Positions 40,901 to 43,900 of a stretch of 64,000 nucleotides of DNA are shown one piece after another. A program made the position numbers. The stretch comes from Mytilus edulis. Its lineage: Eukaryota. The DNA lies in assembly GCF_963676685.1 (NCBI RefSeq), contig NC_092353.1:17236001-17300000 (forward strand). Direction: 5' to 3'. The first letter of the stretch is position 1. Every line of letters begins with the position of its first letter.

Positions 40901-43900
40901 TCACAGATGTATCGAGAAAATGTATGACGTTTTTAAAAAATCTTGATAAAGTAATTGTTCAATCCTGATCTACCTTAAATAATGAAATGCGCGTCTGACG
41001 TATTAAATTATAATCCTGGTACCTTTGATAAGTATTTACACAGCACTGGGTCGATGTCACTGCTAGTGGATGTTTCGTCTCCGAGGGTATCACCAGCCCA
41101 GTATCAGCACTTCGGTGTTGACATGAATATCAATTATATGGTCATTTTTATATAAATTTTCCGTTTACAAAACTTTGAATTTTTCGAAAAACTAAGGATT
41201 TTCTTATCCCAGGAATAGATTACCTTAGCAGTATTTGGCACAACTTTTGGGAATTTTGGGTCCTGAATGCTCTTCAAATTTGTACTTTTTTGGCTTTATC
41301 ATAACTATTTTGAACTGAGCGTCACTGATGAGTCTTATGTAGACGAAACGCGCGTCTGGCGTATTAAATTATAATCCTGGTACCATTGCTAACTAAATAC
41401 TTCCGCCTTGACTGGAAGAACAAAACTTTAAATTTGAAAGGAAGGTGTCAGTATCAGTTTTCTATACAAAATTTATAATACTTACTTTATTATAGCAGTG
41501 ACGAGTTTTTCCAGAATTGCATCTACGAATTTATTAACCAGCTTTCAAGTTGAGGTAGTTAGATGCTTACTCACCGGTAATAGCACATAGGTCATATGAC
41601 TTTTTTATGTCAACATAAACACAAGATAGAAGTCCATAGTGAGGATCGACTATAAACATCAGGAAAATTCTAAATAAGGCATTAAAAATAAATAAAAAGT
41701 ATTTTTCAAACTGATTTTTAATATATACGAATATGGAGTATCGAGGAGGAAATCAACTATATCCAGAGATTAACTATGGATCTACCAATGTCACTTCTCA
41801 ACAACCTCAAAGTTACTACCATCGATCACCGTCTTCACAATCTAACTTGCCTAACCAACCCATTGTCCAGCAACCTCAAATGCAGAATAATCCTCTAATG
41901 GTCACAGGCTTTGAAGGGCATAGGGAGTGGACCACAGATCTGTTTGACTGTTGTGCAGAGCCAAATACATGTATGTTTTAAATTTTTATGACAAAAAATT
42001 CAAACAGGTCAACATCAGACATACGATAATCTATCATTTGATAATAATTTAATGCAACTTCATAATATACGTCTTATATTTATTTTGCAATACAAATTGT
42101 CATTCATAATAGCTCTCTAAAATATAGTCAAGAACAAATGAAATTATTTCACTGTTGTGGTAATTGAAAACATATCAAATTATATTTATATGTATTGAAC
42201 GACTATCTTTATTGAACGGATGTTTTACCTACAGTATCAACAACACATAATGACTTTTATTTATCCTACTTTGTATTTATATATTTTGTATCTTTTTTCA
42301 GTTTTACTCACTTGTATGTGTTACCCCTGTTCTATTTGCTATTTGGGATCACGAATAGGAGAAAATATGTGTATGCCCTTATGTGTTCCTGCAAGTGACA
42401 TAACCCTTCGAAACAAAATAAGAACTGTTGGTGGAATCAAGGTAATCATTACAAAACTGTCTTGAGATAATTTATTCATGGTGAACTCTTTACAGATTCA
42501 ATAGAAAAAAAAGTTTGCTACTAGTATTTTTGATGAACTAATAATTAAATGTTGAATCCAGGAAAACAAGAATCGTAAATAACTGTACAATTATTTTTTC
42601 TTTCTCTGGAATAGATTACATTAGCTGTATTTGTCAAAACTTTAAAGAATTTGTGGTCCTCGATGCTCTTCAAAATCTTGCTTTAATTGACCTTTTAAAC
42701 TTTTTTGAACCGAACGTCACTGATAAGTCTTTTGTAGACGAAACGCGTCTGGCGTAAATACATTATTTCAATCCTGGTATCTATGATAAGTTAGTTCATA
42801 ATGTCATATTCAACCATTTGCTTAATATTTTATACTGATTTGCTTAAAAAAAGTTATTGTACAGCTGTTAGAGATGGAAATATAGAGCCTAAAAATTGAG
42901 TATTCATAAAACATATCTGGTAGTTTTACTGGATTTTTCTATATGTGTTTAAATATTGTATATTGTGATTAAAAAGAATGACAGTGAATTATTAAATTTC
43001 ACGTTTTAATGAATTATCCTAAACAAGAATCGTAAATAACTGTACAATTATTTTTTCTTTCTCTGAAATAGATTACATTAGCTGTATTTGTCAAAACTTT
43101 TTTGATCCGAACGTCACTGATGAGTCTTTTGTAGACGAAACGCGTCTGGCGTAAATACAAAATTTCAATCCTGGTATCTATGATAAGTTAATACATAATG
43201 TCATATTCAACCATGTCATATCCACGAGTTTCACTTCAGTTTGAATTAGACACTTCGATATCAGTTAATTAATCTCGTAGCAGAACATATGCAACATGAT
43301 TGGAAATTTGCTTAATATTTTATACTGATTTGCTGTAAGAGATGAAAATAAAGAGCCTAAAAATTGAGTATTCATAAAACATATCTGGTAGTTTTACTGG
43401 TTTTTTCTATTTGTGTTTAAATATTGTATATTGTGATTAAAAGGAATGACAGTGAATTGTGAAATTTCACGTTTTAATGAATTATTCTAAACAAATCTAC
43501 ATCTTATATTTTAGTTTTACAGTAACTCTTTTCTATTACAGGGCTCGATGTGCAACGACTGTGCAACAGTATTATTTTGTGGTCAATGTGCCGCCTGTCA
43601 AGAACATAGAGAACTGACTAACATGGGCGTGCCATAGATACTGGTGCTTATATTTCTAAAGCAATGTAAACCTGGATTAACATAATTTCAGAACAATGTC
43701 ATATTACTTAGTATGATAATTAAAAAACGAATACAAACTGTTGTTTAACTTTTTATATATAGATCGATCTTTTAAAAGTATTGGCCTGATGGTTATCGGA
43801 ATTTCGTTTTGTCCTTAATTCCATTCTGCTTAAAACATTCCGACGTCTGAAATTGAGTTTTGTTATTGTCGAATACGCTTACAAACAGTATGATATTATA

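What the first reader, a model, noticed from the sequence alone, without database searches (positions are those of the whole stretch)
40984..41395. Complete 361-nt hammerhead-bounded monomer: a retrozyme that could yield circular RNA
Seen: two GUC cleavage sites 361 nt apart with identical downstream sequence. The downstream hammerhead is perfect; only the 3' half of the upstream one remains. A minus-strand copy at 34782-35212 shows 363-nt spacing, and 56350-56950 is a further decayed tandem. Knowledge: non-LTR retrozymes of about this size with minimal type I hammerheads have been described in metazoans, including mussels, as abundant circular RNAs probably mobilised by PLEs. Probably a known class, but standard annotation would miss it.
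Basis: partly seen in the sequence, partly recalled or inferred. Interest (0 to 1): 0.7.

Follow-up and report, generated by a model that had tools for sequence, protein, structure and literature searches.

The report
Mussel hammerhead retrozyme copy, known family
This is one slightly longer-than-unit copy of the small hammerhead-ribozyme retroelement (retrozyme) already described in Mytilus mussels, real but ordinary for this genome, and this copy has lost the front half of its upstream ribozyme.

Summary
Two GUC sites lie 361 nt apart (40995, 41356). The downstream type I hammerhead (41319-41362) has an intact core, but scores 33.0 bits, just under Rfam's gathering score of 34. The upstream site keeps only GAAA-helix III-GUC. 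A host exon in the window is 99% identical to Mytilus USP16/45, so the genome is a mussel's. Mytilus galloprovincialis is the species in which 350-390 bp hammerhead retrozymes and their circular RNAs were shown in 2020.

The locus is one of about 15 copies of the family, about 6% of the 64 kb. Nearly all copies end 32-47 nt past the cleavage site and start at variable positions. Three exceed one unit (1.15, 1.2 and 2.3 units). This is the pattern of reverse-transcribed, 5'-truncated copies primed at a fixed internal site. It resembles Penelope-like element (PLE) integration, but no PLE lies in the window.

Helix III is an 8-nt palindrome, and the predicted dimer is a double hammerhead. The locus probably cannot release a circle by itself. 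Its unit folds no better than shuffled sequence, and the trans-cleavage pairing is not favoured in the full transcript.

Verdict: a real copy of a known family. Low to moderate interest.

The parts
40984..41040 (+). Upstream partial unit (unit positions about 350-361 plus 1-45). It holds the 3' remnant of a hammerhead (GAAAUGCGCGUC, GUC at 40993-40995) and the first 45 nt after the site. It has no CUGAUGA box and no helix II.
   Evidence: The 5' boundary is supported by the non-significant upstream alignment.
40996..41356 (+). The 361-nt cleavage-to-cleavage unit. GC is 36.8%. The longest ATG ORFs overlapping the insertion are 57 and 35 aa.
41319..41362 (+). Complete type I hammerhead. Helix I is 6/6 and helix II 4/4 with loop UAUGU. 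Helix III is 2 bp plus GCGC, lying inside the 8-nt palindrome ACGCGCGU. Cleavage falls after C41356.
   Evidence: 33.0 bits, E 2.4e-4, gathering score 34.
41357..41400 (+). 3' terminal segment of the insertion (unit positions 1 to about 32-44). Homology to the unit stops here, just before the conserved AC-rich block.
34777..35217 (-). Copy G, 1.2 units, with sites 363 nt apart. It is the other subfamily, its core is mutated (CUGAUAA), and its 5' end lies inside the hammerhead.
34730..34783 (+). G', a short decayed hammerhead fragment in inverted orientation. It abuts the 3' end of G tail to tail.
56233..56950 (+). Copy MN, about 2.3 decayed units with three decayed hammerheads. The units are shortened to 317 and 301 nt.
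61472..61622 (-). Copy O, 5'-truncated (starts at unit position 250). The hammerhead core is intact (32.2 bits). It is the only copy with a clean 11-nt target-site duplication, GATAAACTATT.
21861..22118 (-). Copy B, 5'-truncated (starts at 139). The core is intact (29.6 bits), but the helix III palindrome is broken (ACGCACGU).
30770..30918 (+). Copy F, 5'-truncated (starts at 255), with an intact core (27.8 bits). It is an inverted duplicate of the 3' part of copy D.
29336..29575 (-). Copy D, 5'-truncated (starts at 169). The core is mutated (CUGGUGA; 20.5 bits).
30265..30445 (+). Copy E, 5'-truncated (starts at 172). An internal deletion removes the cleavage site and about 22 nt after it. The copy then continues to about unit position 46.
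27968..28577 (+). Copy C (27968-28150 plus 28541-28577), split by a 390-bp MITE-like insertion with a TTAA duplication. The core is mutated (GACAAAAC).
42596..42791 (+). Copy I, 5'-truncated (starts at 204), core CUGAUAA. It is a local duplicate of J.
43087..43195 (+). Copy J. The core is intact, and helix III is shortened to the 6-nt palindrome ACGCGU.
46125..46351 (-). Copy K, 5'-truncated (starts at 179). The GUC site is lost.
52362..52639 (-). Copy L, 5'-truncated (starts at 114), with a decayed core.
11504..11773 (+). Copy A, the most decayed (56% identity to the in-window majority consensus).

Best explanation
Window 40984-41400 is a 417-bp, roughly 1.15-unit copy of the hammerhead-bearing non-LTR retrozyme family of Mytilus mussels.

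Shown here:
- It is a dispersed, non-coding, AT-rich repeat family.
- The unit is 361-363 nt, with one minimal type I hammerhead per unit.
- Copies share a 3' end 32-47 nt downstream of the ribozyme cleavage site and have variable 5' starts.
- A few copies run past one unit, which gives short terminal direct repeats.

Inferred:
- The copies are cDNAs made by target-primed reverse transcription.
- Synthesis starts at a fixed internal site of the RNA, just 5' of a conserved AC-rich/GGGUCGAUG block.
- It runs back through the hammerhead on a template longer than one unit, either a circular RNA or an uncleaved multimeric transcript, and usually stops early.
- This is the integration style of Penelope-like elements (PLEs), so a PLE reverse transcriptase is the most likely mobiliser.

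The hammerhead has a 2-bp helix III inside an 8-nt palindrome and is predicted to pair as a double hammerhead. In source loci with two or more full units it would cut out unit-length RNA with 5'-OH and 2',3'-cyclic phosphate ends. A host tRNA ligase would then circularise that RNA, as published for M. galloprovincialis.

This particular locus has one complete ribozyme and only the substrate half of the upstream one. It is most likely a non-productive retro-copy, not a source of circles.
For: Host genus: the exon at 2482-2838 is 99% identical to USP16/45 of M. coruscus and M. galloprovincialis. The next best hit is 76%.

Known family: M. galloprovincialis has about 5000 type I hammerheads in repeats of 350-390 bp. 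They are expressed as circular RNA and circularised by RtcB (PMC7229834, passages).

Ribozyme: 33.0 bits to Hammerhead_1, with four more hits at 32.2, 29.6, 27.8 and 20.5 bits, all inside family copies. The core pattern occurs 4 times against 0.12 expected.

Family: 15 loci total 3924 bp, 6.1% of the window.

Ends: local alignment puts 11 of 14 3' ends at unit positions 38-46. The other three are accounted for:
- C is split by a TTAA-flanked insertion and resumes to position 44.
- E has an internal deletion and runs to about position 46.
- MN ends at position 32.

The chance of at least 12 of 14 ends falling in any 15-nt window is about 8e-13. D/F and I/J are duplicates, so there are 12 independent loci.

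5' starts are scattered: 114, 120, 139, 169, 172, 174, 179, 204, 250, 255, 299, 300, 333 and about 350. The upstream flanks of the truncated copies share no common sequence.

Three of the 14 loci exceed one unit.

Among four diverged full units, the best conserved blocks are positions 45-62 (0.91) and the hammerhead (0.87), against 0.77 overall.

The predicted homodimer MFE is exactly a double hammerhead, -31.5 against 2 x -10.0 kcal/mol. The single-hammerhead fold is -6.7 against an alternative MFE of -10.0.

PLE parallels from papers:
- Heavy 5' truncation, partial tandems and adjacent inverted copies (PMC8557442, passages).
- Reverse transcription begins internally in an AC-rich stem-loop downstream of the hammerhead cut site. 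Ribozyme cleavage is not needed for insertion in vitro (PMC11167929).
- Vertebrate retrozymes are related to PLE pLTRs (preprint 10.64898/2026.07.22.740005).
Against: - No copy reaches Rfam's gathering score: 0 hits.
- No PLE is present in the window. None of 83 ORFs of at least 75 aa matched a GIY-YIG family. The only reverse transcriptases are a LINE (16626-19286) and a fragment that looks DIRS-like by eye. The partner is therefore inferred only by analogy.
- Only 1 of 14 loci shows a target-site duplication better than shuffles (O, 11/11 nt, p about 0.003). The other 13 have p 0.36-1.0.
- The unit RNA is not unusually structured. Linear z-score is +0.49, and 73 of 100 shuffles fold as well. 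The circular MFE is -68.6 kcal/mol with 59% paired. This does not match the 'highly self-paired' description in the 2020 paper.
- The 61-nt hammerhead stretch has z +0.85.
- Only 5 of 19 hammerhead positions keep an intact core.
- H is 92.4% identical to the in-window majority consensus and the other copies are 56-90%. These are old copies, and current activity is not shown.
- Sequence identity to the published mussel clones could not be checked.
Confidence: 0.68

Rival explanations
1. The locus is itself a productive source of a 361-nt circular RNA. The complete downstream ribozyme pairs with the upstream remnant as half of a double hammerhead and cuts the upstream site. The downstream site is cut as a single hammerhead or by a second transcript.
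For: For isolated segments, the predicted heterodimer forms the 8-bp helix III and a 6-bp helix I around the upstream site: -21.9 against -13.2 kcal/mol for the separate parts. The other 1.2-unit copy (G) also keeps just the substrate half at its 5' end.
Against: In the 401-nt transcript 40975-41375 these pairs have probability about 0.001. The single-hammerhead fold is less stable than an alternative fold. No promoter evidence exists; the only scan on hand is for bacterial promoters and gave 4 sites against 4.1 expected. The terminal repeats differ at 5 of 51 positions, so the copy is old.
Confidence: 0.08
2. The copies are 5'-truncated 3' ends or solo pLTRs of an autonomous Penelope-like element, not a separate non-autonomous retrozyme.
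For: PLE insertions are mostly 5'-truncated 3' ends and carry the hammerhead in the pLTR (PMC8557442). Eleven of the 14 loci are shorter than one unit, so they could be either.
Against: Three loci return to the same sequence after 301-363 nt with no coding sequence in between. The longest truncated copies share no sequence upstream of the unit. The window holds no PLE ORF.
Confidence: 0.1
3. A SINE-like element mobilised by a LINE, such as the one at 16.6-19.4 kb, not by a PLE.
For: A common 3' end with 5' truncation is also the LINE/SINE signature. A LINE with endonuclease and RT domains lies in the window.
Against: There is no tRNA, 5S or 7SL-like head: ARAGORN found 0 genes and Rfam gave no such hit at E up to 10. 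There is no poly-A or simple-repeat tail at copy ends. BLAST of the unit against the window found only family copies and no match to the LINE. Partial tandems and an inverted tail-to-tail pair fit PLEs better.
Confidence: 0.1
4. A satellite or minisatellite spread by DNA-level duplication and unequal crossing-over, without reverse transcription.
For: Some copies are DNA duplicates: I/J as a local duplication, and D/F as a 169-nt inverted duplication at 95%.
Against: The longest array is 2.3 units. Twelve independent loci share one 3' end but differ in their 5' starts and flanks, which random DNA breakage does not give.
Confidence: 0.04

Closest known systems
Non-LTR retrozymes of Mytilus galloprovincialis (Cervera and de la Pena 2020, PMC7229834)
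   Same: Same genus by the host exon. The unit size of 361/363 nt falls within the published 350-390 bp. There is one minimal type I hammerhead per unit, with a 2-bp helix III capped by a tetraloop. GC is low (36.8%), there is no coding capacity, and there are two sequence subfamilies, as the paper reports two ribozyme families.
   Different: Sequence identity to the published clones (for example the 353-nt monomer) could not be tested. Here most copies are solitary 5'-truncated fragments, not tandem arrays. The unit's predicted fold is no more stable than shuffles.
Penelope-like elements and their pLTR hammerheads (PMC8557442; PMC11167929; listing only for PMC4209133)
   Same: Heavy 5' truncation. 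A full unit is preceded by a truncated one. An inverted copy abuts another copy. The hammerhead lies in the repeated terminal part. The copy end lies a few tens of nt downstream of the cut site, next to an AC-rich block.
   Different: There is no RT/GIY-YIG ORF, and the unit is only 361 nt. No PLE in the window is available for comparison. The 30-40 bp 'tail' was not clearly seen; only an 18-nt extension is shared by the duplicates D and F. The inverted copy here is tail to tail, whereas the paper describes one at the 5' end.
Amphibian satellite 2 / axolotl retrozyme hammerheads that cleave as dimers (passages of PMC7229834)
   Same: Weak helix III with a palindromic loop. The predicted double hammerhead is much more stable than two single folds.
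   Different: Helix III here has 2 bp where HHR_Amex1 has 1. The paper reports that mussel hammerheads cleave as single motifs, though slowly (about 0.1 per min). The need for a dimer was not tested here.
Vertebrate non-LTR retrozymes as PLE derivatives (preprint 10.64898/2026.07.22.740005)
   Same: Both monomeric and multimeric genomic forms occur. The hypothesis of PLE dependence is the same.
   Different: That work covers vertebrates plus a few outgroups and states that other organisms were not examined for closeness to PLEs. Mussels are not in its sample as far as the parts I read show.

Membership tests
Hammerhead ribozyme, type I (Rfam RF00163) | Conserved core CUGAUGA ... GAAA ... GUC with the cleavage site after C17 | tested here: met
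   41325-41356 matches exactly. A scripted check gives helix I 6/6 and helix II 4/4.
Hammerhead ribozyme, type I (Rfam RF00163) | Three-way junction with helix I open and helices II and III closed | tested here: met
   Full-length alignment to model positions 1-45 with that structure. The canonical fold evaluates to -6.7 kcal/mol but is not the MFE of -10.0.
Hammerhead ribozyme, type I (Rfam RF00163) | Score at or above the curated gathering score (34 bits) | tested here: not met
   The best hit is 33.0 bits, and there are 0 hits at gathering score. It misses by 1 bit, with E 2.4e-4.
Hammerhead ribozyme, type I (Rfam RF00163) | Self-cleavage | not testable with these tools
   This needs in vitro transcription.
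Metazoan non-LTR retrozyme | Head-to-tail repeats of a 150-450 bp unit, each with a type I hammerhead (dimer or more) | tested here: inconclusive
   This locus has 1.15 units with one complete ribozyme and one remnant. G has 1.2 units and MN 2.3 decayed units. Eleven of 14 loci are shorter than one unit.
Metazoan non-LTR retrozyme | Low GC (below 45-50%), no coding capacity, no LTRs | tested here: met
   GC is 36.8%. The longest ATG ORFs are 57 and 35 aa. The terminal repeats are only about 57 nt of the unit itself. PBS and PPT motifs were not searched for.
Metazoan non-LTR retrozyme | Host and unit size as in the described Mytilus family (350-390 bp) | tested here: met
   The host exon is 99% identical to Mytilus proteins. 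Units are 361 and 363 nt. The paper's passage was read.
Metazoan non-LTR retrozyme | Sequence similarity to published retrozyme clones | not testable with these tools
No eukaryotic DNA collection was on hand. A 25-nt string search of papers found 0 papers.
Metazoan non-LTR retrozyme | Expression as unit-length linear and circular RNA | not testable with these tools
   No RNA data were available.
PLE-dependent non-autonomous element | Frequent 5' truncation with a common 3' end | tested here: met
PLE-dependent non-autonomous element | Partial tandems (a truncated copy before a full one) and adjacent inverted copies | tested here: met
   Three of 14 loci exceed one unit. G/G' form a tail-to-tail inverted pair.
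PLE-dependent non-autonomous element | 3'-terminal sequence shared with an autonomous PLE of the same genome | not testable with these tools
   No PLE lies in the window, and the rest of the genome could not be reached.
PLE-dependent non-autonomous element | Optional 30-40 bp tail at one end | tested here: inconclusive
   Only an 18-nt extension is shared, and D and F are duplicates of each other.
SINE | Head derived from tRNA, 5S or 7SL RNA with an internal Pol III promoter | tested here: not met
   ARAGORN found 0 genes. No such Rfam hit appeared at E up to 10.
Satellite DNA | Long head-to-tail arrays | tested here: not met
   The longest array in the window is 2.3 units.

The most novel reading that the evidence does not exclude
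The dispersed mussel copies carry the footprint of Penelope-type internal initiation of reverse transcription. Their fixed 3' end lies 32-47 nt past the ribozyme cut, directly before the most conserved, AC-rich block of the unit. Synthesis would start there and read through an uncleaved hammerhead on a multimeric or circular template.

If so, this would be sequence-level evidence from an invertebrate that retrozymes are PLE-dependent. It would also suggest that the self-cleaved linear monomer is not the template, and that the conserved block at positions 45-62 is the RT recognition site.
Probability: 0.4. Interest if true: 0.45.

Novelty: already known. Interest (0 to 1): 0.25.

Why it matters
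The finding shows that a routine Rfam pass at gathering score leaves this whole ribozyme-bearing family unannotated, although it fills about 6% of this stretch of a mussel genome.

The only part that goes beyond the 2020 description is the anatomy of the copies. They share a common 3' end downstream of the cut site, next to the best conserved block of the unit. They are 5'-truncated, and some are partial tandems. This anatomy gives a concrete, genome-wide testable prediction about where reverse transcription starts and which retroelement supplies the enzyme. The 2026 preprint on vertebrate retrozymes states that it left this question open for other organisms.

Tried and rejected
- **Rfam at gathering score:** nothing found.
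- **Thermodynamic support for a rod-like or highly paired unit RNA:** none. z is +0.49 for the unit and +0.85 for the hammerhead stretch. The circular fold alone was then computed.
- **Target-site duplications:** only 1 of 14 loci was convincing. A gapped candidate at this locus (14 nt against 13 nt, seen by eye) was not tested statistically and is not claimed.
- **An older decayed copy, or the missing ribozyme half, upstream of 40984:** not significant.
- **Rescue of the upstream site by the downstream ribozyme:** predicted for isolated segments but not in the full transcript.
- **A PLE partner in the window:** none found. The RT fragment at 21117-21777(-) looks DIRS-like by eye only.
- **tRNA-like head:** none.
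- **Bacterial promoter/terminator scan:** uninformative for an animal genome.
- **Protein Atlas search of the LINE RT for taxon clues:** uninformative.
- **Literal search of papers for a 25-nt stretch of the hammerhead:** 0 papers.
- **Supplementary files of PMC7229834:** these hold the mussel hammerhead families, cloned circles and the integration model, but were closed. Sequence identity with published clones stayed unchecked.
- **Searches for related loci:** none were possible.
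Full report
**What is at the coordinates**

One search shows GTC at 40993-40995 and again at 41354-41356, so the two presumed cleavage positions are 361 nt apart. The downstream site belongs to a complete type I hammerhead:
- helix I: GCGUCA pairs with UGGCGU;
- core: CUGAUGA;
- helix II: GUCU/AGAC with loop UAUGU;
- then GAAA, helix III, and GUC.

A scripted check gives helix I 6/6 and helix II 4/4.

Rfam's Hammerhead_1 model aligns over its full length at 41319-41362 with 33.0 bits (E 2.4e-4). 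That is one bit under the gathering score of 34. At gathering score the whole window gives no hit at all.

The upstream site keeps only GAAAUGCGCGUC. Sequence 5' of about 40984 does not align to the unit better than shuffled sequence does: 48 of 500 shuffles for the last 40 nt, and 160 of 300 for 40600-40983.

The sequence after the two sites is similar but not identical. There are 2 mismatches in the first 32 nt and 5 in the 51-nt terminal repeat.

- The minus-strand copy has sites 363 nt apart.
- The decayed tandem spans 56233-56950, with three decayed hammerheads 317 and 301 nt apart.

The core pattern occurs 4 times in the window against 0.12 expected, and 0 of 100 shuffles reach 4.

**Whose genome**

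The window has 32.7% GC and no N. It is 99% identical to USP16/45 of Mytilus coruscus and of M. galloprovincialis, with the next best mollusc at 76%. The window is therefore from a Mytilus mussel. The species is not resolved.

**The locus is one member of a dispersed family**

BLAST and local alignment of the unit against the window find 15 loci on both strands. They total 3924 bp, 6.1% of the window. There is also a short inverted fragment. The copies fall into two sequence subfamilies. H, the locus in question, is the least diverged, at 92.4% identity to an in-window majority consensus. The others are 56-90%, so these are old copies.

**Copy ends**

In unit coordinates (1 = first nt after the cut), local alignment places 11 of 14 3' ends at positions 38-46 (fragment P left out). 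The remaining three are explained:
- Copy C is interrupted at position 11 by a 390-bp insertion with a TTAA duplication and 20-nt inverted termini. It resumes at 28541 and runs to position 44.
- Copy E has an internal deletion and runs on to about position 46.
- MN ends at position 32.

D/F and I/J are DNA duplicates, so there are 12 independent loci.

The chance that at least 12 of 14 ends fall in any 15-nt window of a 361-nt unit is about 8e-13.

The 5' starts are scattered from position 114 to about 350. The flanks upstream of the truncated copies share no common sequence, so the truncation is real.

Three loci exceed one unit: H (1.15), G (1.2) and MN (2.3). In each, a truncated unit precedes full ones.

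Only copy O has a clear target-site duplication (11/11 nt, about 1 in 300 shuffles). The other 13 loci show none better than chance.

**How it most likely works**

A shared 3' end, variable 5' truncation and copies longer than one unit are the marks of target-primed reverse transcription. The template must be longer than a unit, so either a circle or an uncleaved multimer.

The 3' end does not lie at the ribozyme cut. It lies 32-47 nt downstream of the cut, directly before the block ACACAGCACUGGGUCGAUG. Together with the hammerhead, that block is the best conserved part of four diverged full units: 0.91 and 0.87 mean column identity, against 0.77 overall.

Published work on Penelope-like elements describes the same style:
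- high 5' truncation, a full copy preceded by a truncated one, and adjacent inverted copies (PMC8557442, passages read);
- reverse transcription that starts internally in an AC-rich stem-loop downstream of the hammerhead cut site, with ribozyme cleavage not needed for insertion in vitro (PMC11167929, abstract, passages and second half of the main text).

A 2026 preprint relates vertebrate retrozymes to PLE pLTRs and states that other organisms were not examined (10.64898/2026.07.22.740005; abstract, most of Results, and Discussion).

My reading that a PLE enzyme made these mussel copies is an inference by analogy. The window holds no PLE. None of 83 ORFs of at least 75 aa matched a GIY-YIG family. 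The reverse transcriptases present are a LINE and a fragment that looks DIRS-like by eye.

**The ribozyme**

Helix III is 2 bp (A-U, C-G) capped by GCGC, and the whole stretch ACGCGCGU is an 8-nt palindrome.
- The single-hammerhead fold is worth -6.7 kcal/mol, against an alternative MFE of -10.0.
- The predicted homodimer MFE is exactly a double hammerhead, with intermolecular helices I and III, at -31.5 against 2 x -10.0 kcal/mol.

Copy J has lost two bases of the palindrome and still has a 6-nt palindrome.

Of 19 hammerhead positions in the family, 7 match a full-core pattern. Two of those (E, K) are spurious, with helix I at 1/6 and no GUC. That leaves 5 intact: H, F, B, J and O.

The 2020 paper reports that mussel hammerheads cleave slowly as single motifs, about 0.1 per min. 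Whether they need dimers was not tested here.

**Can this locus make a circle?**

Probably not on its own. Taken as isolated segments, the complete ribozyme and the upstream remnant are predicted to form half of a double hammerhead around the upstream site, at -21.9 against -13.2 kcal/mol. In the full 401-nt transcript those pairs have probability about 0.001.

The unit RNA is no more stable than dinucleotide shuffles: z +0.49, and 73 of 100 shuffles fold as well. As a circle its MFE is -68.6 kcal/mol with 59% of bases paired. No promoter or expression evidence could be obtained.

**Comparison with what is known**

Cervera and de la Pena (PMC7229834, passages read) described about 5000 type I hammerheads in M. 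galloprovincialis. They fall into two families within 350-390 bp repeats. They are expressed as abundant circular RNA and circularised by a tRNA ligase, with PLEs proposed as mobilisers.

The present family matches in genus, unit size, ribozyme type, helix III form, GC content and the presence of two subfamilies. Direct sequence comparison with their clones was not possible.

The locus is filed as a copy of an already known family.

I saw no description of where mussel retrozyme copies end in the passages I read. My searches were (5 papers; 43 papers, 30 listed; 7 papers), and I read only parts of four papers. So I do not claim it is unpublished.

**Verdict**

The claim that this locus is a complete ribozyme-bounded monomer able to give a circle is not supported.

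Interest is low to moderate. The copy-end anatomy and the conserved block next to it are the only leads worth a genome-wide follow-up.

Noticed in passing
window 28151-28540: A 390-bp MITE-like insertion with a TTAA duplication and 20-nt terminal inverted repeats (28147-28166 / 28525-28544, 85%). It splits retrozyme copy C. A related 89-nt piece recurs at 28751-28839 (94%).
   Followed up: partly
window 34730-34783 (+): A decayed hammerhead fragment in inverted orientation abuts the 3' end of copy G tail to tail. It may be a template switch or an inverted PLE-style co-insertion.
   Followed up: partly
window 29318-29486 and 30768-30936: A 169-nt inverted duplicate (95%) made of the 3' part of a retrozyme copy plus 18 nt beyond its usual end. 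It is either a DNA-level inverted duplication or a copy with a short extra tail.
   Followed up: partly
window 42596-43195: Copies I and J, with their flanks, are a local direct duplication. Copy J keeps an intact hammerhead with a shortened 6-nt palindromic helix III that neither Rfam nor my pattern scan reported.
   Followed up: partly
window 41040-41057 (unit positions 45-62) and the same block in G, M and N: The AC-rich stretch followed by GGGTCGATG is the most conserved block among four diverged units (0.91). It sits right after the point where the dispersed copies end.
   Followed up: partly
window 59211-59363: A long, nearly perfect hairpin is hit on both strands by the plant MIR161 model, far below its gathering score (46.5 and 44.3 against 90 bits). 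It is probably an inverted-repeat element, not a microRNA.
   Followed up: no
window 16626-19445 (+): A LINE-like element with PHD-like, endonuclease and RVT_1 pieces in three overlapping frames, broken by stops or frameshifts. A TA-rich simple repeat follows near 19.9 kb.
   Followed up: no
window 20298-21777 (-): ORF pieces with an RT (YLDD) domain, and downstream pieces that look like RNase H and an integrase N-terminal domain. By eye this is a DIRS or tyrosine-recombinase type retroelement fragment, not a PLE.
   Followed up: no
window 2482-2838 (+): An exon encoding the end of the UCH domain of USP16/45, 99% identical to Mytilus proteins. It is the only clear host coding sequence I saw.
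   Followed up: partly
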